This document shows positions 6,354 through 28,235 of a stretch of DNA of 64,000 bases, one piece after another (the stretch's first letter is position 1; each line of letters opens with the position of its first letter). The stretch is from Candidatus Altimarinota bacterium. GTDB lineage: Bacteria; Patescibacteriota; Gracilibacteria; Peribacterales; Peribacteraceae. The position numbers and the translations under genes are program-made. The stretch spans positions 2,186-66,185 of the forward strand of contig CAVOCY010000001.1 of NCBI GenBank assembly GCA_963694385.1. Reading direction: 5' to 3'. The notes beneath the pieces are model-generated. The model made no database searches. It saw nothing but the letters and a program-made list of their open reading frames with translations, and was not told where the DNA came from.

Positions 6354-6354
6354 G

Positions 6355-12942: not shown

Positions 12943-13571
12943 TCACGCTCTTCCCGCAATTTACTGATCGAATAGACTGTCGTTTTTTAACGAAGAATGA
13001 TGATCGCAACGTTCCCGACCCCCGAGTTTGCCTTAATCAAATCCATGGAAATCGCACAATACTTTCTCGCGAACCAATGGAAAGTTCCGAAGAAGCGGAT
13101 GGAGTAATAACTGACCAAAAAGGATTACATCTCTTTATCCGCGCGGCCGACTGTCAGAACTTCGCGGTGTATGATCCGGTGCTCCACATTGGCGGTGTGT
13201 TACATGCCGGATGGAAGGGTATCGTCGCTGGTGCGATACCAGAATTTTTTCGGGTCTTTTCTGATACATTTGAGACTGATATTTCGCAGATTTTTGTCAC
13301 TGCTGGCCCCTCGCTCTGTAAGGCCTGTGCAGAGTTTTCGGACCCCAAATTAGAGCTGCCAGAGATCGATACTCAGTACGTTGATGGGAGGTGCGTAGAT
13401 CTCCAAAAAGTGGCCCAAGATCAAATGGTGGCGGCAGGGGTACTCCCCCAAAATTTCTTTCGGCACCCAGACTGCACCTGTTGCCAACATGAATCGTATT
13501 GGAGTTATAGAGGGGGAGACAGGAAAAGCGTCCAGAATGGGCAATCAAATATGCTTATATTGACGATTTAA
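12939..13571 (+). CDS. pgeF: YfiH/PgeF (DUF152) purine nucleoside phosphorylase / laccase-domain protein
   Basis: The ATG at 12939 overlaps the nnrD stop (ATGA). Motifs RAADCQNFAVYDP, HAGWKG and GPSLCKACAEF are present. Confidence 0.85.
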   Translation: MITLFPQFTDRIDCRFLTKNDDRNVPDPRVCLNQIHGNRTILSREPMESSEEADGVITDQKGLHLFIRAADCQNFAVYDPVLHIGGVLHAGWKGIVAGAIPEFFRVFSDTFETDISQIFVTAGPSLCKACAEFSDPKLELPEIDTQYVDGRCVDLQKVAQDQMVAAGVLPQNFFRHPDCTCCQHESYWSYRGGDRKSVQNGQSNMLILTI

Positions 13572-13651
13572 GTACAAATATCCATTTAATTGACATTTTT
13601 AACTAATTCATTACTATGCTACTAATTATTTAGTATATATAAGGATATCTT

Positions 13652-16600
13652 ATGGCTAAAAAGAAGCGCCCATCACTGGCGAAAGCTGCTGCTGACGCAG
13701 GTCAATTAGACCAGAAAGAACTGCCGGTAGGGAGAGCATGGTTTTTAGAACAACATGCCACAGCCCTTGTTGCTATAGAAACTATCGTTATAAATCTGCG
13801 TAAACGACTCGCAAAAACAGCTGATCGTAAAGGGGGCAGAGATCTTGAACCTCTTTTGGACATTGTCCGTACGCAAATACCAGAAGCAATACGTAATTTG
13901 GCACCTGTAAAAGTTATAAAATTGGATCAAATACAGGGGGCAAATGGGCTTTGTGAATCTATAGAATCACTGGTGGATGATGCACGTAAATCAGTTCCAG
14001 CTGGTCGTTCGAAACTGCAACAGGAACTGCTCCAGCAATTAGGCGATGTACAACAACGAGTGCAAGCACGTGCAGGAGAAATTACAGAGGCGAAGGATGC
14101 AGGACAACAAACGAAGAAGCCCTTCGTGCCAGACTGGGATCCTGTAACTCCTCCAGAGCCTGAAGTTCCTCTTACTCCAGTCGAAGAAGCATATGCGCTT
14201 GTCGATGTATATTCCGAAAAGGAGCGCGCAAAATTTATTGGTGAAAAACTCGTCAATCTTTTGCACGAAAAGTACTGGGATTTTCTTTCGCAAATTAGTG
14301 AACCGCCAATCAATTTATCGGAGCAAGTTACTGCAGGCACTATCAAGAACCTCTCTACTGTATGCATAGCACTGGAGGCTCACATAGGAAAAATATGTGC
14401 AAATGCTCAACCATTAGATTTGCAGGATATGCAACAAGCACTACTACTACCGATATCATTAGAAAAATTCTCTCTGCCACCTGCTATCGAAGGAGCATTA
14501 CACACTACAATAATTAGCTCTCTACGCACATGCATGGATGGCATCTCAGAGGATGAAGAAATGGTCTACATGTTATCGGATATAAAAGAACATATTCGAT
14601 ATGATAATGCGGATGACATACAGACCGTACTTCTCTGGGAAAAAGTAGAACAAGGAGAAGACTTTCCACTGCAACAATTTGAGCGCGAATATATTGCGGG
14701 TAGAACACCCGCAAAACGCAGAAGAATTAAATCAGCAGCCAAAAAGGCTGATCTCTGTGCAGAAATTGCTGTGCATCTCAATACGAAATATCACGGAGGA
14801 TTTTCTCTGCGCTCAATGGCAGATATTCAAAGAATTATGGCTGCATCGATTACACCTAAAAAGAGGCGCCTAGCAGCATCTCCAGTTGTAGCAGATGATA
14901 AGTCAGCAGCATCTCCAGTTGTAGCAGATGATAAGTCAGCAGCAGATCCAGTTGTAGTAGATGAGAAGTCAGCAGCAGATCCAGTTGTAGCAAGGAAGAT
15001 ATCAACATCAGCCCCCGTGAAGTTGCAACCAGAATCGCAACCAGTTATATCGCAACAAGATGCAGCTGCAGTCGCAGCGTTTGCACAAGGTCTTCCTGCT
15101 AGGCCAATAGCACCTGCTAAGGCGCAAGCAGTTAAAGAACAAAGTGTTCTAGAATTTGATAAGCGCGAACTAGATCACATGACGACGTTGATAATCCCTA
15201 CAGGTATTACTGATACTACGGACGTTCGTCTTCATACTGAATTGCGTACTACTCTCTGGAGAAGTCTTAACGCAACTCTCTATGGCGATTCTGATAAAGC
15301 AGTAGAAGAAGTCTACGGCCATACGCTTATGAACCAAGCGATTACTGCTGCCGCTTTATTAAAGCCTGTAGAGGAATACACTCCTACAGTAGCCCCTAAA
15401 TCGGAAGAAGTAGATCCAGATGCTTCAACACAACAAGAGCGCAATGTTGCACTTGCTATGGTTCGATCATGCAAAAAGATTGATACCGCATTAGCTAGAC
15501 GTCTTCGTATGGGAGTGAATATTAAAAGGGGGAAAGACAAGCTATCTCTTCGCGAGATTCCGTTTATCGAAAGTCTGATTGTAGAAACTCTGATAGAGCT
15601 GAAGAGAGAAGATGAAATTGCTACAGCAGGATTATCAACAGTAGTTGTAGAGCCTGTGACTGAAGAAGCTCCTACTGATGTAGAACCTGAGACTGATGTA
15701 CCTGAAGTTGTAGAGCCAGTTGCTGGAATACCTGTAGCTGTAGCTGTAGCTGTAGAGCTAGTGACTGATGTACCTGAAGTTGTAGAGCCAGTTGCTGGAA
15801 TACCTGTAGTTGCAGAACCTGTGATTGAAGAATCTCCTACTGATGTAGAACAAGTAGCTGTAAAATCTGTAGTTGTAACTACAGAAACTGTAGAGCCTGT
15901 AGCTGCTCCCCCTGCTGCAGAAACTGAAATAGAAGGAGAACTAGAACTCGAAGTGTTGCATATAGCTATGCGAGCACGCGCTGCAATGATTGAAGAATGG
16001 ACTACTGTCCAAGCATCTATAAAACGCATCACTGGCGAAGCAAATCAACTAGATGCGCAGCTTGTAGAACTTGAATCACAAGCAGACACACTCGGTGAAA
16101 CAATGGGGAATCTGATAACAGAATTGTTCTCAGCAGAAACGAGTAAACTTTTTAACCACTGTAGGATCGAAATCGACACTGGTGACTTTAAGCAAAGTCC
16201 CCGAGCAGATATACAGCAATCTGCAGAATTTTTGAAGAGTGCAATTACGAAACTTCAAATATTCAAAGATCTACAAGCACAACTAGAAAAAATGCGAGAG
16301 GCTATAAATGCATTACACGAGGAATACAAAACTCTTTCTGGCTCTGCACAACGTGCACAAAAGTTTCACAGCAAAGCAACAAGGGAAACCTTTGGTGTAT
16401 GCATGCAAGAATTCCTACCGGATGAAGACAGAGATCGCCTACAAGAAATTCCAGAATTTATTATGACTCTGGACGCAGCAAAAGAAGAAGTGGGAACTGT
16501 GGATCAAAGCCATATTCGTGGAATGGAATTATCTATAGAACAGGCAGGAATAGGGGTAAAATTCTCAGAAAAAGAACTAGAGAAAGCAAAAATGGGATCA

Positions 16601-17263
16601 AAGCATGACAAACAATCCCCAGCCCAAATCGAACAAATTTTTATTGAGTCTTTACAGATCGTACAGGCATTTTTGAATCCTTCAGCAAAAGCAAAGAAAG
16701 AGCCAGTTCCTAAGCCAGCATCTAAGTCGGCTCCTAAGCCATCATCAAATGGCAGTGCCAATGTCGACAGTCTTCCAGAGCTTACGCTAAGCGAACTGCA
16801 AACATCACTCATAAAGCTTATGACAGCCCAGATAGGAAACAGACATCCTCGACACACGACATGGGGATTTACAGCGGCAACTATTCGAACATTCTGGATC
16901 GAAACCTTTGGGGGCAACGATACTCCCTCAGAAGACGAGATCTGTACTGCGCTCAGTGATGCACAACTCACTGGAGATGTTCCTATACACGCCATGAACT
17001 ACCGTCCTTCAAATACAGAGATGCACGATTTCCGTAGAGCACCGCACTACATGACCAGGTGGGCCAATAAAATCAACGAGATGTTTTTGCCAACACATAG
17101 AATATTTGACTATGCAGAGCAGAATGAAATGGCCCTAAAAGAAGAAGAATTCGATCTACTGAAAACACACCGTGATGCTCAAAAAGCTGATAGACAGAAA
17201 CAGAATTGGGGTGGCAAGAAGAAGAAAACAACGAAGAGGAGAACGGGTGGAAATGATGCGTAA
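13652..17263 (+). CDS. Large (1203 aa) orphan protein: basic termini, coiled-coil-like segments, acidic V/P/E-rich tandem repeats
   Basis: Single long ORF with an AAGGA SD 8 nt upstream and an AT-rich upstream region (TTGACA...TACTAT). I recognise no catalytic motif. Internal 33-nt and 72-nt period repeats are present. Confidence 0.8.
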   Translation: MAKKKRPSLAKAAADAGQLDQKELPVGRAWFLEQHATALVAIETIVINLRKRLAKTADRKGGRDLEPLLDIVRTQIPEAIRNLAPVKVIKLDQIQGANGLCESIESLVDDARKSVPAGRSKLQQELLQQLGDVQQRVQARAGEITEAKDAGQQTKKPFVPDWDPVTPPEPEVPLTPVEEAYALVDVYSEKERAKFIGEKLVNLLHEKYWDFLSQISEPPINLSEQVTAGTIKNLSTVCIALEAHIGKICANAQPLDLQDMQQALLLPISLEKFSLPPAIEGALHTTIISSLRTCMDGISEDEEMVYMLSDIKEHIRYDNADDIQTVLLWEKVEQGEDFPLQQFEREYIAGRTPAKRRRIKSAAKKADLCAEIAVHLNTKYHGGFSLRSMADIQRIMAASITPKKRRLAASPVVADDKSAASPVVADDKSAADPVVVDEKSAADPVVARKISTSAPVKLQPESQPVISQQDAAAVAAFAQGLPARPIAPAKAQAVKEQSVLEFDKRELDHMTTLIIPTGITDTTDVRLHTELRTTLWRSLNATLYGDSDKAVEEVYGHTLMNQAITAAALLKPVEEYTPTVAPKSEEVDPDASTQQERNVALAMVRSCKKIDTALARRLRMGVNIKRGKDKLSLREIPFIESLIVETLIELKREDEIATAGLSTVVVEPVTEEAPTDVEPETDVPEVVEPVAGIPVAVAVAVELVTDVPEVVEPVAGIPVVAEPVIEESPTDVEQVAVKSVVVTTETVEPVAAPPAAETEIEGELELEVLHIAMRARAAMIEEWTTVQASIKRITGEANQLDAQLVELESQADTLGETMGNLITELFSAETSKLFNHCRIEIDTGDFKQSPRADIQQSAEFLKSAITKLQIFKDLQAQLEKMREAINALHEEYKTLSGSAQRAQKFHSKATRETFGVCMQEFLPDEDRDRLQEIPEFIMTLDAAKEEVGTVDQSHIRGMELSIEQAGIGVKFSEKELEKAKMGSKHDKQSPAQIEQIFIESLQIVQAFLNPSAKAKKEPVPKPASKSAPKPSSNGSANVDSLPELTLSELQTSLIKLMTAQIGNRHPRHTTWGFTAATIRTFWIETFGGNDTPSEDEICTALSDAQLTGDVPIHAMNYRPSNTEMHDFRRAPHYMTRWANKINEMFLPTHRIFDYAEQNEMALKEEEFDLLKTHRDAQKADRQKQNWGGKKKKTTKRRTGGNDA
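14873..14992 (+). repeat. 33-nt tandem repeat x3.6 (AASPVVADDKS units) in the 1203-aa gene
   Basis: Units 1 and 2 are identical, and units 3 and 4 are diverged (AADPVVVDEKS). Confidence 0.9.
15691..15809 (+). repeat. 47-nt exact duplicate at 72-nt period (TDVPEVVEPVAGIPV) plus a (GCTGTA)x3-4 run
   Basis: gactgatgtacctgaagttgtagagccagttgctggaatacctgtag occurs at 15691-15737 and again at 15763-15809. Confidence 0.9.
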
Positions 17264-17426
17264 ATAATGGACTTTTCTAGAATTTATGGTAAAGTGCATA
17301 ACCAAGCACCCAAAAACACGCTTGGATTGTTCCTTGGCACTATCGGCGTGCTAATAAAACTAAAACACTGCCCTTCACCTGGGCAACCGCAATGCACGGT
17401 ATGCATACTTAGGAGTTCACGAAGCC

Positions 17427-18278
17427 ATGTCCAGATTACAAACTAGTCGACGACAAGCATTAGTGCTTGCTATGCAAGATCGTGGATTCACGATCAAGCA
17501 GCTTGCGGAATCGGTAGCTGCCAAGCCCGCAAATGTCGCGGATGAAGCGAACCGCATCACTCGAATTCGTAGAAAGGACAAAAAATCTATCCTCCTGCGA
17601 CAGGAGGATGCCGTGCGATACGCGGCAGCTCTCGAAGTTCCCGTCAACCGCCTTCTTGCGGGAGAATTGACCTCCGAAGAAAAAAAATCCAGTGGCGGAT
17701 GCAAAGCAAAATCTGCTGCGCCCAAGGCGGGGAAATCCAAGTTGGAGAAACGAACAGCTGTCCTGAAAACCCGTAAGAAACTGGCTGCAGATCGCTTTAC
17801 AGCTCTGACCACAGCCCTCTGTGGACGTGGTCACGCTGCACTACACAGTCAACTTGAAGCTGCAGGGAAGTTGCAGTGGACAACTGCAATGGTGAAGTCA
17901 TACGTTCGGGGAACACGGTTCCCCAACAAAGACTTCTTGACGGACGTAGCAGAACTTCTGGGTGTGGACCTCAAAACCCTCACCATCCGTGAATCTCCTC
18001 TGGAGAATCTCGGACGAAGACCTGCAACAGTAACACCTGTTGTAACACCGGCTGTATTGTCAGCATTGAATGCAGACACAGGTATTCCTGTGAGGGTGTT
18101 TTGCAACGAACTTCTCGGGGTAAAACACGAAGATCGCATCGTTTTCGACGCTCCTACCCGATCATTTCGGGGACAGAACGTTGAACTCGTACCCAACAAA
18201 GGCGGATTTGACCTCGTCGTGAGAATCCCCGTCACAGGAGACATTTCGAAAAAATTGTTGGGTCTCGTGACCCAGTGA
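17427..18278 (+). CDS. Protein with two XRE/Cro-like HTH modules
   Basis: 283 aa with AGGAG 11 nt upstream. HTH-like module 1 is FTIKQLAESVAAKPANV...VRYAAALEVPVNRLL. Module 2 is WTTAMVKSYVRGTRFPNKDFLTDVAELLGVDLKTL. It is followed by its own terminator. Confidence 0.65.
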   Translation: MSRLQTSRRQALVLAMQDRGFTIKQLAESVAAKPANVADEANRITRIRRKDKKSILLRQEDAVRYAAALEVPVNRLLAGELTSEEKKSSGGCKAKSAAPKAGKSKLEKRTAVLKTRKKLAADRFTALTTALCGRGHAALHSQLEAAGKLQWTTAMVKSYVRGTRFPNKDFLTDVAELLGVDLKTLTIRESPLENLGRRPATVTPVVTPAVLSALNADTGIPVRVFCNELLGVKHEDRIVFDAPTRSFRGQNVELVPNKGGFDLVVRIPVTGDISKKLLGLVTQ

Positions 18279-18305
18279 ACAGCACGCCACCCGCCAACGA
18301 GCAAA

Positions 18306-18337
18306 GCCCCGTACAATCGATGTATGGGGCTTTTCTT
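18306..18337 (+). terminator. Rho-independent terminator after the 283-aa HTH gene
   Basis: Stem GCCCCGTACA / TGTATGGGGC (one G.T pair) with loop ATCGA, followed by TTTTCTT. Confidence 0.75.
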
Positions 18338-18351
18338 AGCACTATAGGCAA

Positions 18352-18379
18352 TTGACTAATGGTCGAAATAGCGTATAAT
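18352..18379 (+). promoter_or_regulatory. Near-consensus sigma70-type promoter
   Basis: TTGACT (18352-18357), a 16-nt spacer, then TATAAT (18374-18379). The ORF-track ATG at 18359 lies inside the promoter, so it is not the real start. Confidence 0.65.
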
Positions 18380-18382
18380 ATT

Positions 18383-18451
18383 GTGCCCATTTGGCAATTT
18401 GGCACATTTTTGTGCCTTTTTTTGCTATTTGGGACGGTCCTTTACACCGTC
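18383..18451 (+). promoter_or_regulatory. Structured leader / operator: alternative hairpins and a T7 tract
   Basis: GTGCC (18383-87), TTGGCA/TTGGCAC direct repeats (18391-18405), then the palindrome GGCACA-TTTT-TGTGCC (18401-18416) followed by TTTTTTT. A second hairpin GACGGT/ACCGTC lies at 18433-18451. Confidence 0.5.
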
Positions 18452-18508
18452 GGCTCACTATACAATTTACCGAATCAATCGGATCACCCAACTCAAAGGA
18501 ACAGTAAA

Positions 18509-19369
18509 ATGAAGAAGACTTCGAAGAAAGAAATGCGAATCGAGAACAAACAGTTCCGAGCAAAGGTCAAGGAAGGCAAGCTGCTCGGGTACTGGGTCAA
18601 CCAGAAGGACTGTGCCGAAAAGATCGGCATACCCCGAAGTACATTTGGAGGATATGCGGCGGGTTTTATTCATGGAGAAAACGTCTTATTGGCAATTGCA
18701 GCAATGCAAAAGCTAATCGACGCAGCTCCACCGCCAAGTATTCCTCCGGCCTCGACAGAACATCCACTTCAAGACCTCCTTCAACGAGGAAAAGACGCGG
18801 GTCTCTGGAAGGCTATCTCGTCCTGTGCGAATGTTCTAAAGAAAGATAGAGACACTATCTCTCGCTACCTCGACATGGAAAAAGAAGGCACTGTCGACGA
18901 TAGTACTATGCGCGAACGGGCTTACTACGCAAAACTCCTCGCAGCAATGCGAAGAAAATTGAGTAAAGGCTCGGCTGCACCACCAGGTGACCTGCCACCG
19001 GAGCGAGGACACCCCTCAGCTCCTGATGGTGTCGTCGCATCTCCGTATTACGACCGGCTCCTTGCCGGCGTTGCGGAGTTCGAGGACCAGAACCTCGGTG
19101 GTGTGCGTTTCGTTCTGACACAAAGAAACTTCAAGAGACTGAAAGGTGTCGTGACGAAACAGGAAGTAGCAGATACCAAGCTTCTCATCGAAGAATTGCG
19201 TCGCAGGTTAAACCTTGTGGCACAAAATAGCGATGAAGAGGTGCGGGCTCTGTGCTACCGCGAACTAGGGCAAGAGCTGGAAGCGCTCTTGAACGCTGCA
19301 GAAATCGTTCAGGAAGTAATTCCAACTGCAGCAGTTGCACGCTTGGAAAAACTTCGAAAAAGTCTCTAA
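18509..19369 (+). CDS. HTH-containing protein (about 286 aa)
   Basis: The start at ATG 18509 (AAAGGA 10 nt upstream) is chosen because the promoter lies downstream of the ORF-track start. The HTH-like segment is VNQKDCAEKIGIPRSTFGGYAAG. The composition is GC-rich. Confidence 0.6.
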   Translation: MKKTSKKEMRIENKQFRAKVKEGKLLGYWVNQKDCAEKIGIPRSTFGGYAAGFIHGENVLLAIAAMQKLIDAAPPPSIPPASTEHPLQDLLQRGKDAGLWKAISSCANVLKKDRDTISRYLDMEKEGTVDDSTMRERAYYAKLLAAMRRKLSKGSAAPPGDLPPERGHPSAPDGVVASPYYDRLLAGVAEFEDQNLGGVRFVLTQRNFKRLKGVVTKQEVADTKLLIEELRRRLNLVAQNSDEEVRALCYRELGQELEALLNAAEIVQEVIPTAAVARLEKLRKSL

Positions 19370-19403
19370 CATTTCTTTTCTCAAATCAGAAAGCTGAAAA
19401 ACC

Positions 19404-21521
19404 ATGGCCAAGAAACAACAAGCTGACAAAAGCGTAAGTGTCGCTCCTGTCATCAACCGCGAACGGGCGTTCCGTTCGGTCTGTCCAAAGTATCGTCCGA
19501 CTCTCACCAGAGTGGTCGAAGCCCTGAGGGAACTCGTGACCAATGGCGAAGATGAGGGTGCGGATGACATCCGTATCTTCATCGAAAAATCGAAGAAGGA
19601 ATTTCGAATCCATGACAATGGTCGTGGATTCGGCGCACGGCAGAAAAAGGGGTTCTTCTGGCTCTTTGAGTCAGAAAAGACGGACCGAAGCGGCAAGAAG
19701 AAACCCACAGGACAACATGGAACAGGGCGACTGCAGACTCTGCGATTTGCAGACTGCATCACTCCGTGTTCCTCCTCGCATGAGGATGCGGGGTTCTACA
19801 AAACGTCTCTCAGCAGAGCTGACGCGCAAGCGATCTGGGAAGGAGACACGACGGCTCGAAAATGGACACCATGTTCCAAGCCGAGTCATTGGCATCTTCC
19901 GCCAAAAGCGCATGGGTCTGTCGTCGACATCACTGTTTCAGATGAGCATTGGAAAGGAATGCCGTCAGTGAAACAGATCATCGATGAATTGGGGAAGCAC
20001 CTCTCACCGCGACTTGAACGGCAAGTCACGGTGAACGGCAAAAACCTCAAACCGAGGGCAGTCGCAAAAAGTTTCACGCAGAGTTTTGATCGAGCTGCGC
20101 TCGAAGAAGAACTCGGCGCGGAAGCAGCTGCGGCGCTCGGCGATTGTCTCGTCGATCTGTACATGCCCGAGAAGTTAGAGAGGGGCAACGACGACATTAA
20201 GTTGGGGGGAGCAAAGAATACAATTTGCTCTCTGTGGGATTTCCTGATGAGTCTGCCCGAAACAGACTTGCAGGATGCCCTCCCTTCGTTGCTGACCTCC
20301 CGAAGTCATCTCTTCGGATACGTCTTCATAGAAGGTCTCAACGAGCACGCTGCCGAGGACCGAAAGACGCTGAAAGACAGCGTCTACGATGGCATGCACA
20401 AACATGTCATCAGGTTCCTGGCGGATGTGGTCGGACCTCTGATCGAAGAAGCCTACGCGAAGAAAGAGGCAGAAGAAGCGAGGTCAAAAAGAAAGAAAAG
20501 CCTCGTGGATTTCTGCAGAGAACTCAAGAAGGCCTTTGACCCTGGCAAGGGCACATTGGCCGACGAGGACTCTGAAGAAACCGTAGAAGACGGCCTCCCC
20601 TCTGGCACAGCGAAAGAGGAAGAGAAAGAAACGAAACGGCCCGCGATCAGTGTAAAGCCGGGATGGTTCCACGCCATCGCGGGAGAAACACAACCAATCG
20701 AGGTTACCTTCCATGAAGGCATCAAAGAGACAGACCTCGAGTGGGTGACGGATGGAGTTAGTGAATGTGGTGCAATTTCTAAGGAAACTGGAAAAAGCAC
20801 GATCTTCACCGCGCAGAAAGTTGGAAGCGGCACGCTGGTCGTTCGCAACAAGCAGGATCACGAGCAGTGTGCGGAAGTCCGCATCCAAGTGGTCGACGAG
20901 AAGAAGTTACAGATCTCGCCGCCGAACGTTCCCGTCGAGCAAGGAAGCACGCAACGCTTCCGCGCCCGAAACCACGAAAGCACGAGTGGGAACATCGGAT
21001 GGAAGTTGGTCACGAAAACGCGTGGAATTCGCCTCTCCAACACGAAGGGGTTGGGAACAACCCTCACCGTCGCGGACGAGGCGAAACTCGGTGTCTACGA
21101 AATCGAATGTTGGGATGTGGACAACGACACCATTCAATGCACGGGAAGATTCGAAGTCGTGCCTGCCGACACTCCCAGCTTCGTGCTGAACGGCAAGACG
21201 TACTACCCCCGCGTGTCAACGGTGCCGCAACCGGAGCCTGTCATCTTGCAACAGGATTGCCTCTTCATGAAAGGAAAGAAGAAAGGCAAGGCTGGCAAGG
21301 TCGAAATCGATTTCGATCACGCAGACTTCAAGAACCTCCTCGCACTTGGCGGGGAAGACGAAGCAACAAGGATGATGATGTTCGAATCGATCATCATCCT
21401 GCATTTGGACAAAGAACTGGCAGCCGGGAACCTCCTCTCCGCCTCGGAGATGACAACCCGGTTCCACGAACTGCGTTCAAAATTCCTTGCAGACCGTGTT
21501 GCTGCAGGGAAAAAGAAGTGA
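19404..21521 (+). CDS. GHKL (Bergerat-fold) ATPase fused to two Ig-like (Big_2-type) domains
   Basis: 705 aa. The N-box E43-LVT-N47-GE-D50, the G1 box D71-NGRGF and the G2 box G103-QHGTG occur in canonical order and spacing. Residues ~414-497 and ~502-586 resemble Big_2 repeats (ISVKPG..AGETQPIEV...WVTDG...FTAQKVGSGTLVV). I see no signal peptide. Confidence 0.7.
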   Translation: MAKKQQADKSVSVAPVINRERAFRSVCPKYRPTLTRVVEALRELVTNGEDEGADDIRIFIEKSKKEFRIHDNGRGFGARQKKGFFWLFESEKTDRSGKKKPTGQHGTGRLQTLRFADCITPCSSSHEDAGFYKTSLSRADAQAIWEGDTTARKWTPCSKPSHWHLPPKAHGSVVDITVSDEHWKGMPSVKQIIDELGKHLSPRLERQVTVNGKNLKPRAVAKSFTQSFDRAALEEELGAEAAAALGDCLVDLYMPEKLERGNDDIKLGGAKNTICSLWDFLMSLPETDLQDALPSLLTSRSHLFGYVFIEGLNEHAAEDRKTLKDSVYDGMHKHVIRFLADVVGPLIEEAYAKKEAEEARSKRKKSLVDFCRELKKAFDPGKGTLADEDSEETVEDGLPSGTAKEEEKETKRPAISVKPGWFHAIAGETQPIEVTFHEGIKETDLEWVTDGVSECGAISKETGKSTIFTAQKVGSGTLVVRNKQDHEQCAEVRIQVVDEKKLQISPPNVPVEQGSTQRFRARNHESTSGNIGWKLVTKTRGIRLSNTKGLGTTLTVADEAKLGVYEIECWDVDNDTIQCTGRFEVVPADTPSFVLNGKTYYPRVSTVPQPEPVILQQDCLFMKGKKKGKAGKVEIDFDHADFKNLLALGGEDEATRMMMFESIIILHLDKELAAGNLLSASEMTTRFHELRSKFLADRVAAGKKK

Positions 21522-21540
21522 GCTGACAAGTAGAGACCCA

Positions 21541-21575
21541 CTCTCCTGGCACATTTGTGTTCAGGAGAGTTTTTT
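21541..21575 (+). terminator. Rho-independent terminator after the GHKL gene
   Basis: Stem CTCTCCTG / CAGGAGAG with a 13-nt loop, followed by TTTTTT. Confidence 0.8.
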
Positions 21576-22016
21576 AGCGTGCCTGAGTAACGTTTTAGTT
21601 CTTACACTGCTCTGATAAGTTGATCAGACTTTTGTTAAGTAGGTTGGGCTAAATGTTAACTTTGCTTACTGGTAGTTCCACCGTACAAACACACGTTTTG
21701 CACTGAGATAAATACCTCACGCAAGCTCTCTTCTTGGACAGTCTACCCCTAGGTCTCTACCATAAGTTCTGTTCTAGATGATTCGTTCTGAATCGGTTAC
21801 GTTTCTTCTCAATCAGCGTTCCCAGGGAGGTTAAATCATGTAGATCTGCGGATCTACGTTGCAACCACCCACCTAACTTACAGGGGACAGGCGTAATCGG
21901 ACGACGATCACCTGGAGATTAGTACACGGATCTAACCTCGCTCAACTGCGGATCACTGCAAGAGTGGGGTTTTTCTTATTCCGCTTCGCAGGATTTTTAT
22001 ATAGGATTACTATCCA

Positions 22017-23126
22017 ATGAAGAATCTCGAAGATCGCCTGACGGCAGCTAACACTCTTCTAGCCCCCTACGCTGTCCCTCACCAGGGAACACTAGGAAGA
22101 AAGGTAAAAGAAGCCCCTGACAGCACGAGGGGCCCATTTGTGCGTGATAGAGATCGTATCGTCTATGCAAAGGAAATGCGGCGTCTTATGGGAAAAACAC
22201 AGGTATTTGTCTCTGGAGAAGGAGACCACAACCGCACAAGACTTACACACACAGCAGAAGTCGTCATTATTAGCCGTAATATTGCACGAGCATTGGGTCT
22301 TAATGAAGATTTGGTGGAATGCATCGCTCTTGCGCATGACTTGGGACATCCTCCTTTTGGTCACTCTGGAGAAGCTGCTCTAAACGCTTGGATGAAAGAC
22401 CATCAATCTTCTTTTGAGCACAACAAGCAATCTCTACGTATCGTCGAGGTTCTTGCTCATCACCCTCCTCTGGCACAAGGGCTCAACCCCAACCGAGAAG
22501 TGTTAGAAGGAATGATGAAACACCGCACACCACATGATAACCCAGAAGATTCCATACCCCGCAATCCTTCTTTAGAAGCACTCGTTGTCAATATCGCAGA
22601 TGAGATCGCCTATACCGGTCACGATGTTGATGATGGACTACGTGAGAACATTCTTACGATGAAAGATCTCAGCCAAGTGGAATTGATTCAATACGCACAA
22701 GCACGAAAAACCCACGCCTCTCTTAATAGCGCCATCGTTGATGCGCTGGTAACAGATCTCTACGCAGAAACCGAGAAACAAATCGACGCGCAGAACATCA
22801 AAACACTTGATGACGTGTATGAGCGATCGGATAACCCTGTGCGATTTTCTACTGATATGCGCAAAAAACTAGATGAGCTTCGCAATTACCTAATGCTAAA
22901 TATGTACTTACATCCGGATGTATTACAAAGAACAGAACATGGAAAACGTATTGTTATCGCATTGTGTGACCACTTCCATAGCACCCCAAATAAACAGGTG
23001 ATGACATTGCAAAAAGCAAATGGCGGTAACCTTGCAGAAGCTGTAAAAGATCACATTGCCGGTATGACCGACGACTATGCTACGGCTACTTTCGAAGCTC
23101 TACCCCCGCAGCAGGAAGATGCTTAA
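22017..23126 (+). CDS. dgt: dGTP triphosphohydrolase-like HD-domain protein
   Basis: 369 aa with RTRLTHTAEV....IALAHDLGHPPFGHSGE and the C-terminal IAGMTDDYA motif. Confidence 0.85.
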   Translation: MKNLEDRLTAANTLLAPYAVPHQGTLGRKVKEAPDSTRGPFVRDRDRIVYAKEMRRLMGKTQVFVSGEGDHNRTRLTHTAEVVIISRNIARALGLNEDLVECIALAHDLGHPPFGHSGEAALNAWMKDHQSSFEHNKQSLRIVEVLAHHPPLAQGLNPNREVLEGMMKHRTPHDNPEDSIPRNPSLEALVVNIADEIAYTGHDVDDGLRENILTMKDLSQVELIQYAQARKTHASLNSAIVDALVTDLYAETEKQIDAQNIKTLDDVYERSDNPVRFSTDMRKKLDELRNYLMLNMYLHPDVLQRTEHGKRIVIALCDHFHSTPNKQVMTLQKANGGNLAEAVKDHIAGMTDDYATATFEALPPQQEDA

Positions 23127-23964
23127 GCGGATTGATATGACCCGCTCCTGTGATAAGTTCGAAGTGTAGATGTGGACCAGTAGAGAGATTACCCGCACCT
23201 GCAGTCCCCGGCATTCCTCCGCTAAGACCAATTGGGTCTCCTCGAAGTACTTGTTGTCCTTTTTCAACATGCAATTCACTGAGATGACCATACAACGTGA
23301 CGTACCCTGCATGCCGCACGGTAATAAAGTTATACCCAAGACCATTGTCGACAACCTCTTCTACTACACCGTCTTCGGCCACAGTCACTGCTGTACTTTG
23401 GATGGCTGGGATATCAATCGCATTATGCTCCATACCAAAGTACCGCTTGTACTCCGGATCTTGGAAGATAGCAGAGATTCCATACGTAGGTTCAACCGGC
23501 CAGCGAATGGTAATAATAGGGTCACTATCACTGAGTGTTGCTGCTGCAAGCCCTGCACGGTTGGCATCCCACATTTCTTTAAACGACTGCACCATCTTGT
23601 CATCAGCTCTGCGCTTTCCTTCTATCAGATCTACGATGAGGCGAAGTCCCTCACGAAATTCTTCGTTAAGTTCTTCACTAAGGTCAGGACCCATAAATTT
23701 GCGCTCTTCTTCTAGAACATTAAGCTGATACTTAAGAATCTCGATGTGTCGCTCGGCAATTTCACTCTCCAGCCTCGCCCTACGTACCTCGTCCTCTGCG
23801 GTGTGAATCGCTATTTGCTGTGGCTCTTCTCCTCCTTGTCCATCAAGTACCTGTGCAGATTGACCACTACTCATCACTGATGAAAGACCAAAAATAGACA
23901 CCCCTACAATCACCAGAAGAGAAAACGGCCGACTAATTTCGATGTGGACAGGCATTGTTGCCAT
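23086..23964 (-). CDS. M23 peptidase with N-terminal anchor and coiled coil (EnvC-like)
   Basis: 292 aa with VRHAGYVTLYGH ... GPHLHFEL. Its 3' end overlaps the dgt 3' end by 41 nt. Confidence 0.8.
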   Translation of the reverse strand: MATMPVHIEISRPFSLLVIVGVSIFGLSSVMSSGQSAQVLDGQGGEEPQQIAIHTAEDEVRRARLESEIAERHIEILKYQLNVLEEERKFMGPDLSEELNEEFREGLRLIVDLIEGKRRADDKMVQSFKEMWDANRAGLAAATLSDSDPIITIRWPVEPTYGISAIFQDPEYKRYFGMEHNAIDIPAIQSTAVTVAEDGVVEEVVDNGLGYNFITVRHAGYVTLYGHLSELHVEKGQQVLRGDPIGLSGGMPGTAGAGNLSTGPHLHFELITGAGHINPLKHLPAAGVELRK

Positions 23965-24048
23965 CTATTGTACCATAGGACATACCTAAAGAATGCAGTG
24001 ACTATGCATTCCCCAATACGCGTCAAACATCTATAATAGTAGAGGTAA

Positions 24049-24126
24049 AGGCGCGTAGCTCAGTTGGTTTAGAGCATCGGTCTCCAAAACCGGGGGTCGT
24101 AGGTTCGAATCCTACCGCGCCTGCCA
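24049..24126 (+). tRNA. trnW: tRNA-Trp (anticodon CCA), CCA end encoded
   Basis: The cloverleaf was folded by hand: acceptor AGGCGCG/CGCGCCT, D stem GCTC/GAGC, anticodon loop CTCCAAA, T arm GTAGG-TTCGAAT-CCTAC. TATAAT lies at 24032-24037. Confidence 0.9.
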
Positions 24127-24145
24127 ATCTCTTACCCCTATTCAA

Positions 24146-24286
24146 ATGACTCACTATATCTGTACCGGTACCTGCAAAGGACAAACCGATGATCCAAGCG
24201 TTGGAACCTGCCAAGCAGAAACGTGTGACAAGCACGGTGAACCTCTGACAACCTGTGAATGCGAAGACGGTAATCACGGAGCGTAA
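24146..24286 (+). CDS. Unannotated 46-aa Cys/His-rich acidic mini-protein (putative metal-binding)
   Basis: It is below the ORF-track cutoff. Translation: MTHYICTGTCKGQTDDPSVGTCQAETCDKHGEPLTTCECEDGNHGA, with 6 Cys including a CxxxC and a CxC pair. It starts 20 nt after the tRNA-Trp and has no obvious SD. Confidence 0.45.
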   Translation: MTHYICTGTCKGQTDDPSVGTCQAETCDKHGEPLTTCECEDGNHGA

Positions 24287-24287
24287 T

Positions 24288-25199
24288 TTACGCACAATGT
24301 TCATGGCTTTTCTCCCAGTCAGAAAAGCCTTTTTTACCAACCTTCCACCTGCCACGTTCTCGGAAGGCAGGGAGAGATTGTTTTTTTGCAGCGTTGGAAA
24401 TCACCTGTGCAGAATGCTTTGGATGGTCAGCGCCGGCGTCACTTACAAATACAATGTCATCCCCTTCGAGATACGCGATACGTTTATGGAAACTCTCTTT
24501 AAGATGCAAAGCAAAAATCAATTCAAATGGCTTTGTGTCACCCTTTCCATCGTATGCCTGTAATGCTGCGTAGTAGTCTTTCTTCTCTTTATTTCTGATG
24601 ATTACCGGAGGGTAACCAATCGTCTTTAATTGAAAATTAAGCAGCGCTCTACCCACACGACCATTCCCATCAAGGAAAGGGTGAATGTGTTCGAATGCGA
24701 GATGAAACAAAATAATTCTATCAAGAATATGCTCCGACTCATCGGCAAAGTCCGCCATCAAATTATCCATAAGACTAGGAAGTTTTTCAGGAGCTGGTGC
24801 TATATGTTTACCAACACGAACGTACTCTTTGGTCCTACGAAAGCATCCTGCAAAATCATCATTAATGTGACTGAGCAGTGTGCCATGCACTAGTAAGATC
24901 ATATCGTTTGAGAGTGATTCATCCTTCTCCAGCTTCGCATTAAGGTACTCGTTTACCTTCCCGAGATTGATCGCTTCGAAGACTTCTCTTTGACTGCTAT
25001 TTGGTGGAAGAGTTTGATGCTCAAGGATTTGCTCGGTTTCGTCTAAGGTAAGCGTAGAATTCTCAATCGCATTAGAGTTAAATACGAGCTCTGGAAGCTC
25101 CGCTTCCTCCAAAAGGGTAAGGAGGGACTCTTTGCCAATTTTACCCTCATCAAAGCGCTTTTGGAGCTCTTCTATGTTGTTTAGTGTAGTTTTGTGCAT
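24288..25199 (-). CDS. Fic-domain protein (AMPylase family) with an N-terminal auto-inhibitory motif
   Basis: 303 aa. The Fic motif HPFLDGNGRVGR lies at aa 172-183. The motif S42-NAI-E46-N47 matches the (S/T)xxxE(G/N) inhibitory helix. Confidence 0.85.
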   Translation of the reverse strand: MHKTTLNNIEELQKRFDEGKIGKESLLTLLEEAELPELVFNSNAIENSTLTLDETEQILEHQTLPPNSSQREVFEAINLGKVNEYLNAKLEKDESLSNDMILLVHGTLLSHINDDFAGCFRRTKEYVRVGKHIAPAPEKLPSLMDNLMADFADESEHILDRIILFHLAFEHIHPFLDGNGRVGRALLNFQLKTIGYPPVIIRNKEKKDYYAALQAYDGKGDTKPFELIFALHLKESFHKRIAYLEGDDIVFVSDAGADHPKHSAQVISNAAKKQSLPAFRERGRWKVGKKGFSDWEKSHEHCA

Positions 25200-25253
25200 T
25201 TAATAGGTGAAAATATGTCTTTATACTATCTTATTCACCTATAAAAGTCAACC

Positions 25254-27620: not shown

Positions 27621-27670
27621 GTCTGGGAGGGTAGAGAGAAGAGGGTGGGGTTGTCAAAGGAAGACTTGAG

Positions 27671-27727
27671 GAAGTGATGCGTGAAGAGAAATGTGTAATA
27701 CGTACCTTACTCATTACTTCTCACTTA
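27671..27727. repeat. Inverted heptamer arrays: (NNNGTRA)x5 then (TYACNNN)x3
   Basis: GAAGTGA TGCGTGA AGAGAAA TGTGTAA TACGTAC / TTACTCA TTACTTC TCACTTA. Positions 27681-27699 match 58292-58310 at 17 of 19 nt. Confidence 0.75.
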
Positions 27728-27953
27728 CAACTAAAATACCGCTACAGCACTTGCTTTCCCGCCCAAAACATTGCATGGATGTCAAATCAACTTTCCACGC
27801 TGATCATCTTTGGTATTCAGGTAAACTCCGCTTGAGTTAGCCATTTAAATGACTTTTTAAGTGCTATTTTTCTCTGGACCACGTATTTTTGGCTTGCGTA
27901 AGCCCAATGCGAACGTAAACTTTTACTTGAGTTACATCTTTCCCCTTTATCCT

Positions 27954-28235
27954 ATGTCCAAACAGGATATCATTAACGCCATCGCAGACGCCGCTGGAAT
28001 CACTAAGCGATCTGCAGCTGCATCACTTGATGCACTCTGTACACTCGTAACAAAGGAGCTCAAGAAGGGCAACTCTGTTACAATTACTGGTTTCGGAACC
28101 TTCAAGGTTTCTAACCGAGCTGCTCGTACTGGGGTAAACCCACGTAACCCAACGCAGCGTATTTCTATTCCTGCTATGAGGGTTCCATCCTTCAAAGCTG
28201 GTAAGACTCTTAAGGATGCTGTTCGCAGTAGCTAA
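27954..28235 (+). CDS. hup: HU/IHF-family DNA-binding protein
   Basis: 93 aa from the internal ATG: MSKQDIINAIA...GFGTFKVSNRAARTGVNPRNP....IPA. Confidence 0.9.
   Translation: MSKQDIINAIADAAGITKRSAAASLDALCTLVTKELKKGNSVTITGFGTFKVSNRAARTGVNPRNPTQRISIPAMRVPSFKAGKTLKDAVRSS

What the first reader, a model, noticed from the sequence alone, without database searches (positions are those of the whole stretch)
19404..21521. GHKL ATPase head fused to tandem Ig-like (Big_2-type) domains in an apparently cytoplasmic protein
The Bergerat-fold motifs are directly readable: E43xxxN47xxD50, D71-N-G-R-G and G103-Q-H-G-T-G, encoded at nt 19530-19727. About 300 residues of unassigned, partly acidic and coiled sequence follow. 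Next come two ~85-aa segments (aa ~414-497 and ~502-586, nt 20643-21161) resembling bacterial Ig-like group 2 domains, and then a basic helical tail. Big_2 domains are usually extracellular or found on phage virions, yet I see no signal peptide or TM helix here. A MORC/Hsp90/MutL-style ATPase clamp coupled to Ig-like binding modules is unusual. It could be a sensor of phage structural proteins or itself a phage-derived protein.
Basis: partly seen in the sequence, partly recalled or inferred. Interest (0 to 1): 0.7.

Follow-up and report, generated by a model that had tools for sequence, protein, structure and literature searches.

The report
Hsp90/MORC-like ATPase with cytoplasmic Ig domains
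A real, previously unnamed protein family joins an Hsp90/MORC-type ATP-binding head to two Ig-like domains inside the cell, and here it sits in a four-gene island that some otherwise identical strains lack, which suggests an accessory conflict or defence module rather than a housekeeping gene.

Summary
ORF 19404-21521 encodes a 705-aa protein with intact Bergerat ATP-binding motifs. Pfam HATPase_c_3 scores 7.4e-8, and a family profile finds MORC2 (1.6e-16), TRAP1/Hsp90 and MutL. A 124-sequence AlphaFold model (pLDDT 90.7) shows a GHKL head, a second alpha/beta domain, a long helix, an acidic disordered linker, two Ig-like domains, beta hairpins and a helical tail. Head plus second domain match Hsp90 N-terminal plus middle domains best. 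The Ig domains are homologous to each other. They match Big_2 repeats only through family profiles, not by direct Pfam search. No member has a signal peptide.

New findings:
- The family has at least 124 clusters at 50% identity, all unnamed.
- An HTH-repeat partner gene always lies immediately upstream.
- The catalytic Glu is Gln in 45 of 124 members, while the ATP-binding residues stay intact.
- Window 13478-21580 (four genes) is replaced by 62 bp in contigs whose flanks are at least 99.96% identical.
- The ATPase gene has deviant GC3 (0.62 against about 0.40).

I read it as an ATP-gated dimeric clamp in an accessory island, possibly defensive. Function is untested. No phage origin was detected, and it is not a sensor-kinase fragment.

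The parts
13478..21580 (.). Strain-variable accessory island of 8,103 bp carrying all four genes. In 'empty-site' contigs it is replaced by 62 bp.
   Evidence: blastn of L019 and L024 against the window: L019 1-9502 matches window 3976-13477 and L019 9565-21110 matches window 21581-33126, at 99.96-99.99% identity. No att-like terminal repeats were found.
13590..13617 (+). Promoter-like site (TTGACA-16-TACTAT) upstream of the large gene.
   Evidence: Consensus scan, 10 of 12 matches. This is a pattern match only.
13652..17263 (+). Large acidic protein (1203 aa, pI 5.2) with no known domain. It has Pro/Val/Glu-rich in-frame tandem repeats and a conserved C-terminal domain around aa 1032-1161.
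   Evidence: ORF. No significant Pfam, PADLOC, PHROG or PDB match. Homologues lie beside the ATPase gene in L008, L010 and L014. pI.
14872..14992 (+). 33-nt in-frame tandem repeat (3.7 copies). Its copy number differs between strains.
   Evidence: TRF. The window protein has one extra 11-aa unit compared with L020.
15697..15785 (+). Second in-frame repeat region. A 24-aa unit is present in the window and absent in L020.
17427..18278 (+). Basic protein (283 aa, pI 10.3) with two weak XRE-type HTH matches and a small C-terminal beta-rich region.
   Evidence: HTH_3 at 4.8e-4, below the Pfam cut-off. phrog_8 transcriptional regulator at 1.4e-8. Homologues occur in L001, L008, L010 and L014. pI.
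18307..18337 (+). Terminator-like hairpin (CCCCGTACA...TGTATGGGG followed by CTTTTCTT) after the 283-aa gene.
   Evidence: Read by eye. It was not reported by the scan.
18352..18379 (+). Strongest promoter-like site in the island (TTGACT-16-TATAAT, 11 of 12 matches). It lies inside the spurious 5' extension of ORF 18359.
   Evidence: sequence.
18509..19369 (+). Partner protein (286 aa, pI 9.3) with HTH-like repeats and a conserved helical C-terminal domain of about 90 aa. A gene of this type lies immediately upstream of the ATPase gene in all nine independent loci whose DNA could be read.
   Evidence: Other gene callers start it at the internal ATG. An AAGGA motif sits 8 nt upstream of that ATG. 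Alignment A5. blastp links. A profile HMM finds the unseen partners L016_275 at 2e-18 and L017_390 at 5.7e-12. No Pfam or PDB match.
19404..21521 (+). The GHKL-Ig ATPase (705 aa), which is the finding itself.
19491..19928 (+). GHKL (Bergerat) ATP-binding domain, aa 30-175.
   Evidence: Pfam. The profile finds MORC2 at 1.6e-16, TRAP1 at 1.5e-13 and MutL/MLH1 at about 1e-10. Conservation.
19929..20393 (+). Second alpha/beta domain, aa 176-330, resembling an Hsp90 middle or transducer domain. It contains the conserved LN..(D)R loop (L312, N313, D319, R320).
   Evidence: AF2. Foldseek alignments of about 400-500 columns to TRAP1, GRP94, HtpG and Hsp90 N-terminal plus middle domains, E down to 9.9e-13. 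No sequence-level PDB match.
20394..20537 (+). Single long helix, aa 331-378.
   Evidence: AF2 secondary structure.
20562..20630 (+). Acidic disordered linker, aa 387-409.
   Evidence: pLDDT below 50. Net charge -8 over aa 386-411.
20646..20894 (+). Ig-like domain 1, aa 415-497.
   Evidence: AF2, Foldseek, hhalign against Ig2 with probability 99.4%.
20910..21161 (+). Ig-like domain 2, aa 503-586. It is the best-conserved part in close relatives.
21180..21515 (+). C-terminal module: beta hairpins (aa 593-635) and two long helices (aa 640-704). It is a candidate constitutive dimerisation element, by inference.
   Evidence: AF2. Present in 107 of 124 members.
21540..21575 (+). Intrinsic-terminator hairpin (ACTCTCCTG, 13-nt loop, CAGGAGAGT, then TTTTTT), 19 nt after the stop codon. 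The island ends 5 nt later.
   Evidence: Read by eye. The scan's loop limit excluded it.

Best explanation
The gene encodes a cytoplasmic ATP-gated clamp or switch of the Hsp90/MORC/MutL branch of GHKL ATPases. It represents a previously unnamed family with a fixed architecture: GHKL head, Hsp90-middle-like second domain, long helix, acidic linker, two Big_2-related Ig-like domains, and a beta-hairpin/helical tail.

It is co-transcribed with an obligate partner, a basic protein with HTH-like repeats and a conserved helical C-terminal domain. Here it also travels with a second HTH protein and a large acidic repeat protein. Together these form an 8.1-kb island that is present or absent among otherwise near-identical strains of a marine bacterium, probably of the Candidate Phyla Radiation (Peribacteria-like).

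Proposed mechanism, all inferred. ATP binding closes the N-terminal heads of a dimer that is held together constitutively by the C-terminal module. The ATP-bound state is the working state and hydrolysis only resets it. The partner tethers the clamp to DNA. The conserved Ig pair binds a fixed protein ligand, either another island product or an invader component. The most likely biological role is an accessory conflict module, meaning defence against phages or mobile elements, or maintenance of such an element, rather than housekeeping.

What is shown: the fold, the motifs, the family, the operon linkage and the accessory status. What is inferred: dimerisation, DNA tethering, the Ig ligand and the defence role.
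For: Fold and motifs:
- Pfam HATPase_c_3 scores 7.4e-8.
- The family profile finds MORC2 at 1.6e-16, TRAP1 at 1.5e-13 and MutL at about 1e-10.
- The AF2 model has pLDDT 90.7 and pTM 0.74.
- The top 50 Foldseek PDB hits are all Hsp90-family, over about 400-500 aligned columns.
- Viral-library hits are Hsp90-like proteins, topoisomerase II ATPase subunits and RIIA, all of which pair a GHKL head with a second domain.

Family: at least 124 clusters at 50% identity share the N, M and Ig regions, and 107 also share the tail.

Switch behaviour: E43 is Glu in 78 members and Gln in 45 of 124. The Gln members keep N47, D50, G73, G75, G103 and G108 in 45 of 45 cases. Loss of R320 is associated with Gln43 (Fisher p=0.003, not corrected for phylogeny).

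Partner linkage: a homologous partner lies directly upstream in the window and in L001, L008, L010, L011, L014, L015, L016 and L017. Gaps run from -26 to +34 nt, with overlapping start and stop codons in four loci. In the window the pair has its own promoter-like site and terminators.

Accessory status:
- Empty-site contigs have flanks 99.96-99.99% identical to the window.
- The ATPase gene has GC 0.535 and GC3 0.615, against 0.448 +/- 0.013 GC and about 0.40 GC3 outside the island.
- In distant lineages the pair sits among different housekeeping genes each time.

Localisation: no signal peptide or TM helix in any member.
Against: - No protein of the island, or of distant loci, matches any PADLOC defence model beyond a GHKL-core resemblance to TmtA (E 0.0037; 7e-6 for P0020).
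- No recognisable effector domain, such as a nuclease, protease or TIR, is present.
- The Ig domains are conserved rather than hypervariable. Ig2 pairwise identity is 0.70 against 0.64 for the ATPase head in close relatives.
- No integrase or att repeats mark the island. The variation could therefore reflect recombinational loss of a dispensable cellular function.
- Dimerisation, DNA binding by the partner and the Ig ligand were not tested.
- The HTH assignment of the partner rests on weak matches (HTH_26 at 0.0076 in one of seven members) and on its basic pI.
Confidence: 0.4

Rival explanations
1. A nucleoid or transcription regulator. It would be a MORC-like DNA clamp recruited by HTH proteins to compact or silence chromosomal DNA, serving the cell's own gene regulation rather than defence.
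For: The best sequence-profile hit of the ATPase head is MORC2. Two basic HTH-type proteins lie in the island, with pI 10.3 and 9.3. The partner is always adjacent. Distant loci sit among housekeeping genes such as FtsW, L25, SecDF, L10/L12 and MraZ.
Against: The whole island is dispensable in strains with at least 99.96% identical flanks. Its composition is foreign. No DNA-binding surface is evident on the ATPase itself: the net charge of the Ig domains is about 0.
Confidence: 0.2
2. A dedicated Hsp90-type chaperone. Its client would be another island product, for example the 1203-aa acidic repeat protein. The Ig pair would replace the Hsp90 C-terminal domain as the client or co-chaperone platform.
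For: All top-50 structural matches are Hsp90 family members, spanning the N-terminal and middle domains. A conserved LN...DR loop lies in the second domain at L312, N313, D319 and R320. From my own knowledge, this recalls the Hsp90 catalytic-loop motif. A large low-complexity protein is always nearby.
Against: No member matches the Pfam HSP90 family at E<=0.01 (0 of 60). The second-domain profile finds no Hsp90 by sequence. TM-scores are modest, 0.43-0.54 on fragments. A third of the family carries Gln at the catalytic Glu position, which is unusual for a cycling chaperone. Homology of the large neighbour is shown only for the closer branch.
Confidence: 0.1
3. A phage-derived or prophage-remnant protein, for example a virion or decoration protein with Ig domains, now stranded in the chromosome.
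For: Big_2-like domains are common on phage particles, and Foldseek and profile hits include the phage SU10 tail surface protein. phrog_6203 matches 47 of 60 members, with a best E of 3.8e-15. In L001 the neighbours are a ClpP-like protein and a TraG/VirD4-like ATPase, phrog_5156 at 3.8e-64.
Against: There are no relatives in IMG/VR and no tblastn hit in phage or plasmid records. The phrog match covers only the GHKL region (aa 38-222). The island contains no capsid, terminase or integrase genes.
Confidence: 0.05
4. An ordinary two-component sensor histidine kinase fragment carrying a HATPase_c domain.
For: Pfam HATPase_c (PF02518) scores 5.9e-6.
Against: The ATPase is at the extreme N-terminus with no HisKA or DHp domain before it. 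HATPase_c_3 scores better. Profile and fold matches are to MORC, Hsp90 and MutL, not to kinases. No response regulator lies nearby.
Confidence: 0.01

Closest known systems
Hsp90 family (HtpG, TRAP1, GRP94)
   Same: A GHKL N-terminal domain followed by an alpha/beta middle domain. This is the best structural match over about 400-500 aligned columns, E down to 9.9e-13. The head profile hits TRAP1 at 1.5e-13. There is a conserved LN...DR loop in the second domain.
   Different: There is no sequence match to Pfam HSP90 or to Hsp90 middle domains. The Hsp90 C-terminal dimerisation domain is replaced by two Ig-like domains and a hairpin/helix module. The charged linker lies after the second domain, not before it. 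The catalytic Glu is Gln in 36% of members. The gene is accessory, not housekeeping.
MORC ATPases, eukaryotic MORC2/3 and prokaryotic MORC-like proteins
   Same: This is the best sequence-profile match of the ATPase head: MORC2 at 1.6e-16 and MORC3 at 1.4e-10. It belongs to the HATPase_c_3 subfamily. It has a second domain after the head. It is linked to DNA-binding partners, and an accessory or conflict context is plausible.
   Different: No CW zinc finger and no coiled-coil insertion in the ATPase module. An S5 fold in the second domain was not demonstrated, because the fold search prefers the Hsp90 middle domain. The Ig pair has no MORC counterpart.
MutL/MLH1 N-terminal domain
   Same: GHKL head with E-x3-N, DxGxG and GxxGxG motifs. 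Profile hits are about 1e-10 to 4e-11. NCBIfam mutl scores 2e-4 over aa 35-77.
   Different: The scores are far below the family cut-offs (20 bits against 180). There is no MutL C-terminal endonuclease or dimerisation domain.
Phage RIIA and phrog_6203 (unannotated phage GHKL family)
   Same: GHKL plus second-domain fold similarity to RIIA models. phrog_6203 matches 47 of 60 family members.
   Different: The similarity is limited to the ATPase region. No full-length relatives occur in phage collections.
Bacterial Ig-like group 2 (Big_2) repeat proteins and phage Ig decoration or tail proteins
   Same: The Ig1 and Ig2 profiles match Big_2 repeat units in register with Pfam's Big_2 calls in P0053, P0061, P0063 and P0093. 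Fold matches include LigA Big_2 and the SU10 tail protein.
   Different: Those proteins are long, secreted or virion-exposed arrays. Here exactly two domains sit in a protein without a signal peptide, fused to an ATPase. The window protein itself does not reach Pfam Big_2 significance.
Tiamat defence protein TmtA (PADLOC)
   Same: Shares the GHKL core. E is 0.0037 for the window protein and 7e-6 for family member P0020.
   Different: The match covers about 60-80 residues of models about 1300-1650 positions long. There is no further similarity and the architecture differs.
Topoisomerase VI B subunit of Methanosarcina (recalled from my own knowledge, not tested)
   Same: As I recall it, this is a precedent for a GHKL-transducer protein that carries a C-terminal Ig-like domain of unknown role.
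   Different: There is no Top6A/Spo11-like partner (no Toprim domain) in the island. Topo VI did not appear among the top fold hits.

Membership tests
GHKL (Bergerat-fold) ATPase superfamily | Motif I (E-x3-N-x2-D, the catalytic Glu and Mg-binding Asn) | tested here: met
   E43, N47 and D50 are read directly. N47 is kept in 121 of 124 and D50 in 120 of 124 members. Position 43 is Glu in 78 and Gln in 45.
GHKL (Bergerat-fold) ATPase superfamily | Motif II (DxGxG) and motif III (GxxGxG), with a significant profile match | tested here: met
   D71-N-G-R-G and G103-Q-H-G-T-G. HATPase_c_3 scores 7.4e-8, 32.9 bits against a cut-off of 25. 56 of 60 members hit this family.
GHKL clamp ATPases (Hsp90, MutL, GyrB, MORC type) | A second (transducer or middle) domain directly after the ATP-binding domain | tested here: met
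   AF2 shows an alpha/beta domain at aa 176-330 with pLDDT above 90. Foldseek alignments extend about 400-500 columns over Hsp90 N-terminal plus middle domains, and over viral topoisomerase II ATPase subunits and RIIA.
GHKL clamp ATPases (Hsp90, MutL, GyrB, MORC type) | ATP-dependent N-terminal dimerisation | not testable with these tools
   No multimer prediction or experiment was available.
Hsp90 family | Sequence membership in Pfam HSP90 (PF00183), covering the middle and C-terminal domains | tested here: not met
   0 of 60 members hit HSP90 at E<=0.01. The second-domain profile finds no Hsp90 chain at E<=10.
Hsp90 family | Hsp90 C-terminal dimerisation domain | tested here: not met
   Residues after the long helix form two Ig-like domains, hairpins and two helices.
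MORC family | GHKL head of the MORC type | tested here: met
   MORC2 is the top PDB profile hit at 1.6e-16.
MORC family | S5-fold second domain | tested here: inconclusive
   A second alpha/beta domain exists. The top fold hits are Hsp90, not MORC or MutL.
MORC family | CW zinc finger and coiled-coil insertions (eukaryotic MORCs) | tested here: not met
   No such Pfam domains.
Big_2 (PF02368) | Direct significant match to the Pfam model | tested here: not met
   No hit at E<=1 for the protein and none at E<=10 for the isolated segments. 2 of 60 members hit, with a best E of 0.0019.
Big_2 (PF02368) | Profile-level homology to Big_2 repeat units and an Ig-like beta-sandwich fold | tested here: met
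   The Ig1 and Ig2 HMMs hit repeat units of P0053, P0061, P0063 and P0093 at the positions of Pfam Big_2. Tandem-Ig fold hits. The profile hits the SU10 tail protein at 4.4e-15 and Nup210 at 8e-12.
Sensor histidine kinases | A HisKA/DHp phospho-acceptor domain N-terminal to the HATPase domain, with a cognate response regulator | tested here: not met
   The ATPase starts at about aa 30 and no HisKA is present. No response regulator is found in the island or its flanks.
Known anti-phage defence systems (PADLOC-DB v2) | Significant match of the system's proteins to a defence-system model set | tested here: not met
   Only GHKL-core matches to TmtA. The partners and large proteins of five loci have no hits. 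The neighbouring dGTPase hit (5.2e-79) belongs to a flank gene that is also present in the empty-site strains.
Integrative mobile element | An integrase or transposase and terminal direct repeats | tested here: not met
   No such Pfam domains. No terminal repeats. The island replaces, rather than interrupts, 62 bp that include a diverged gene 3' end.

The most novel reading that the evidence does not exclude
The island is a previously undescribed multi-gene immune or conflict system of Candidate Phyla Radiation bacteria. In this reading, an Hsp90/MORC-like ATP switch uses cytoplasmic Ig domains to recognise an invader or self protein. It is positioned on DNA by an HTH-repeat partner and acts through the large acidic protein as a new kind of effector or scaffold.
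Probability: 0.25. Interest if true: 0.75.

Novelty: new variant of a known kind. Interest (0 to 1): 0.55.

Why it matters
If the reading is right, it adds a new architecture to the GHKL clamp ATPases. The usual C-terminal dimerisation or effector part is replaced by Ig-like domains working inside the cytoplasm.

It also defines a conserved two-gene core (HTH-repeat partner plus ATPase) in a group of bacteria that cannot be cultured and whose accessory genomes are almost entirely unannotated.

The natural Glu/Gln dimorphism at the catalytic base offers a ready-made comparison between hydrolysing and ATP-locked forms.

The presence/absence polymorphism among near-identical marine strains gives a direct handle. 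Metagenomic time series and viral co-occurrence could be used to ask what the island is for.

Tried and rejected
- Direct Pfam search for Big_2 on the whole protein and on isolated Ig segments gave nothing, even at E<=10.
- The first AlphaFold run used the 5-sequence alignment. Only the Ig region was confident (mean pLDDT 53.8), so its fold search saw only Ig hits.
- The word-indexed homologue search returned only five close relatives, and returned the same five again when given the 60-sequence alignment.
It found nothing in viral contigs and only a C-terminal fragment in metagenome contigs.
- PDB sequence searches found nothing for the whole protein, the second domain profile, the partner profile, the large protein or the 283-aa protein.
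- PADLOC, NCBIfam and PHROGs gave no informative names for the partners.
- tblastn against phage and plasmid records found no match.
- A profile for the C-terminal domain of the large protein did not reach the convergent large proteins of the distant loci L011, L015, L016 and L017. A universal third component is therefore positional only and not proven homologous.
- Three literature searches found no description of this family.
- I rejected the sensor-kinase fragment idea because there is no HisKA domain and the ATPase is N-terminal.
- I rejected secreted adhesin because no member has a signal peptide.
- I rejected a simple insertion by site-specific integration because there are no att repeats and the gene 3' end is replaced rather than duplicated.
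- Model coordinates were not exposed to scripts. I could therefore not check the S5 topology or the position of R320 and R218 relative to the ATP site.


Full report
**1. The observation**

The ORF at 19404-21521 (+) is open for 705 codons.

- Pfam confirms the domain. HATPase_c_3 scores 7.4e-8 over aa 38-143, above its curated cut-off, and HATPase_c scores 5.9e-6.
- NCBIfam gives only sub-threshold head matches to a sacsin-type ATP-binding domain (8e-7) and to MutL (2e-4).
- A simple hydropathy scan finds no TM-like segment, with a maximum 19-residue Kyte-Doolittle value of 0.98.
- No member of the family has a hydrophobic N-terminus, 0 of 124.

**2. Size of the family**

The word-indexed search of 5.8 billion proteins returned only five relatives at 100, 81, 79, 57 and 52% identity, all unnamed.

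The exhaustive HMMER search with their alignment found 443 proteins at E<=1e-3 and 124 at E<=1e-10.

- 124 contain the head, the second domain and the Ig region.
- 107 of those also contain the tail.
- The median length is 676 aa.
- 27 are long repeat proteins that match only the Ig region.

None of the ten clusters looked up carries a name other than 'hypothetical protein'. The family is therefore real, fixed in architecture, strongly diverged (mean identity about 17-25%) and unannotated.

**3. Structure**

With five sequences, AlphaFold was confident only for aa 412-590. With the 124-sequence alignment the model reached mean pLDDT 90.7 and pTM 0.74, and only aa 1-3 and 387-409 stayed below 50. 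The parts are:

| Part | Residues |
|---|---|
| GHKL head | about 30-175 |
| Second alpha/beta domain | 176-330 |
| Single long helix | 331-378 |
| Acidic disordered linker | 387-409 |
| Ig-like domain 1 | 415-497 |
| Ig-like domain 2 | 503-586 |
| Beta hairpins | 593-635 |
| Two long helices | 640-704 |

Foldseek against the PDB returns only Hsp90-family chains in the top 50 (TRAP1, GRP94, HtpG, Hsp90). E-values go down to 9.9e-13 and alignments span about 400-500 columns, which covers the N-terminal and middle domains. TM-scores are modest: 0.54 on a 365-residue TRAP1 fragment and 0.43 on a 483-residue one.

Against predicted viral structures the hits are Hsp90-like proteins, topoisomerase II ATPase subunits, RIIA and Big_2 proteins.

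At sequence-profile level the head is closest to MORC2 (1.6e-16), then TRAP1 (1.5e-13), MLH1/MutL (about 1e-10 to 4e-11) and MORC3. The second domain alone has no detectable sequence relative in the PDB. No member matches Pfam HSP90.

I therefore place the protein in the Hsp90/MORC/MutL branch of GHKL clamp ATPases, but in none of those families.

**4. The Ig-like domains**

- The family profile hits a phage SU10 tail surface protein (4.4e-15) and Nup210 (8e-12) by sequence.
- Direct Pfam searches do not find Big_2 in the window protein.
- The long repeat proteins picked up by the family profile are Big_2 proteins. Separate Ig1 and Ig2 HMMs hit their repeat units in register with Pfam's Big_2 calls.
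- Ig1 and Ig2 are homologous to each other: hhalign probability 99.4%, E 1e-21.
- The Ig domains are not hypervariable. In the close set, pairwise identity is 0.70 for Ig2 and 0.53 for Ig1, against 0.64 for the head.
- Their net charge is near zero.

**5. Catalytic residues**

The nucleotide-binding residues are nearly invariant (N47, D50, D71, G73, G75, G103, G108). The general-base position 43 is Glu in 78 members and Gln in 45.

The Gln members keep N47, D50, G73, G75, G103 and G108 in 45 of 45 cases. By established knowledge of GHKL enzymes, Glu-to-Gln at this position preserves ATP binding but cripples hydrolysis. This suggests that the ATP-bound state is the functional one and that hydrolysis is dispensable in part of the family.

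In the second domain a loop, LN..(D)R, is conserved (R320 in 83 of 124). Its loss is associated with Gln43 (Fisher p=0.003, not corrected for relatedness).

**6. Gene neighbourhood**

In the window the ATPase gene is the last of four plus-strand genes:

- a 1203-aa acidic protein with in-frame repeats (13652-17263);
- a 283-aa basic protein with weak XRE-type HTH matches (17427-18278);
- a partner protein (18509-19369);
- the ATPase.

The mechanical ORF for the partner starts at 18359. However, the strongest promoter-like site of the region (TTGACT-16-TATAAT, 18352-18379) lies inside that extension. A terminator-like hairpin precedes it (18307-18337). Other gene callers start the gene at the ATG at 18509, which has an AAGGA motif 8 nt upstream.

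A hairpin with a T-run follows the ATPase stop codon at 21540-21575. Partner and ATPase therefore look like their own transcription unit.

The same four-gene order occurs in the contigs of P0002 and P0003. In seven further independent loci a partner homologue lies directly upstream of the ATPase gene. These are L001, L010, L011, L014, L015, L016 and L017, with ATPase identities to the query of about 52% down to about 20%. In four of them the genes overlap by 4-26 nt.

Homology of the partners is shown by blastp. It is also shown by a profile built without L016 and L017, which then finds them at 2e-18 and 5.7e-12.

The conserved part of the partner is a helical C-terminal domain of about 90 aa. 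The N-terminal part has one to three HTH-like repeats. Neither part matches Pfam or PDB.

A large or medium protein of unknown function is always adjacent, either upstream on the same strand or convergent downstream. Homology to the window's large protein is demonstrable only for L008, L010 and L014.

The flanks differ in every lineage and are housekeeping genes: pyrF, holB, MgtE, OTCase, FtsW, L25, SecDF, sigma-70, L10/L12 and MraZ.

**7. Organism**

The only titled relative (52% identity) lies in a MAG called 'uncultured Candidatus Peribacteria bacterium'. The window is therefore probably from a marine member of the Candidate Phyla Radiation. This rests on that single record.

**8. The island is accessory**

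I looked up the exact dGTPase protein encoded just downstream. That returned contigs in which the Cu-oxidase_4 gene is followed directly by the dGTPase gene (L019 and L024, plus three similar places not shown).

Their flanks are 99.96-99.99% identical to the window over 9.5 kb and 11.5 kb. Window 13478-21580 (8,103 bp) is replaced in them by 62 bp.

The left breakpoint lies inside the Cu-oxidase_4 gene. The last 31 or so codons of the two alleles are homologous but strongly diverged. The right breakpoint is 5 nt after the ATPase terminator. There are no terminal repeats and no integrase.

This is the signature of allelic replacement by homologous recombination with a diverged donor. It is not the signature of site-specific insertion or of a simple deletion.

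Composition agrees with a foreign and mosaic origin:

| Region | GC | GC3 |
|---|---|---|
| ATPase gene | 0.535 | 0.615 |
| Large gene | 0.434 | 0.298 |
| Outside the island | 0.448 +/- 0.013 (2-kb windows) | 0.38-0.46 (flanking genes) |

All four genes are gained or lost together.

**9. Interpretation**

*Shown:* a cytoplasmic Hsp90/MORC-class GHKL ATPase with a second domain, two Big_2-related Ig domains and a helical tail; an obligate upstream partner; a natural Glu/Gln dimorphism; and accessory status.

*Inferred:* the protein acts as a dimeric ATP-gated clamp or switch. The partner tethers it to DNA. The conserved Ig pair binds a fixed protein ligand.

Accessory status, foreign composition, variable chromosomal contexts and the recurrence of MORC-like ATPases in conflict systems lead me to favour an accessory conflict or defence role, with confidence about 0.4.

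The weaknesses are the lack of any known defence-family match, the lack of a recognisable effector, and the conserved Ig surfaces.

The rivals are a MORC-like nucleoid regulator (0.2), a dedicated Hsp90-type chaperone for an island protein (0.1), a phage remnant (0.05; no viral relatives) and a sensor-kinase fragment (0.01).

**10. Novelty**

No paper in the searchable library describes this architecture. It is a new variant of a known kind: the ATPase class is familiar. What is new is the fusion to cytoplasmic Ig domains, the partner and the island.

Noticed in passing
window 23965-24290 (tRNA at 24049-24123), compared with L020 12007-14374 and L021 12119-14374: This is a second, independent strain-variable spot next to a tRNA gene. 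Some contigs carry an ABC transporter (561-586 aa) and a DUF559/Vsr-like gene between the M23 peptidase and Fic genes. The window, L019, L022 and L024 lack them. The two polymorphisms assort independently: L022 has the ATPase island without the ABC genes, and L020 has both.
   Followed up: partly
window 14872-14992 and 15697-15785 (inside gene 13652-17263): The large acidic protein is 1203 aa here and 1168 aa in L020. The only differences are one 11-aa unit (AASPVVADDKS) and one 24-aa unit (TDVPEVVEPVAGIPVAVAVAVELV) of in-frame tandem repeats. There are no other substitutions.
   Followed up: yes
window 13478-13571 (3' end of the Cu-oxidase_4 gene): The last 31 or so codons of this housekeeping-type gene exist in two strongly diverged alleles. 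Island-bearing strains have ...CCQHESYWSYRGGDRKSVQNGQSNMLILTI and empty-site strains have ...RCHPETYLTYRGGDKSDVQTGLSNVLVLTLL. The rest of the gene is about 100% identical between them.
   Followed up: yes
window 18359-18508: The mechanical ORF start at 18359 adds a hydrophobic 50-aa extension that is probably not translated. It contains the best promoter-like site of the region and is not conserved in homologues.
   Followed up: yes
window 21581-22016: This is a 436-nt non-coding stretch upstream of the dGTPase gene, and it is also present in the empty-site strains. It contains GC-rich palindromic segments around 21840-21975 and ends in a GGGG-TTTTT run. There is no Rfam match at gathering threshold. 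It could be a leader or small RNA.
   Followed up: no
window 23086-23126: The dGTPase gene (22017-23126, +) and the M23 peptidase gene (23086-23964, -) overlap convergently by 41 nt.
   Followed up: no
L001 498-1313 and 5676-7913: In the Peribacteria MAG contig the cassette is flanked by a ClpP-like protein (weak Pfam match; phrog_1827 at 1.3e-5). On the other side is a membrane-anchored Walker-A ATPase that matches phrog_5156 at 3.8e-64. By eye it resembles a TraG/VirD4-type coupling protein. This hints at a mobile-element context in that lineage.
   Followed up: partly
family alignment A4, column of E43: The catalytic Glu is replaced by Gln in 45 of 124 family representatives. None of these is among the 12 closest relatives of the window protein. 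All ATP-binding residues are retained in them.
   Followed up: yes
window 19404-21521 compared with L020 7388-9505: The ATPase differs by a single residue between the window and the L020 strain. The partner and the 283-aa protein are identical. The database entry P0001, reported as '100%' identical, may therefore differ from the window protein by one residue.
   Followed up: no
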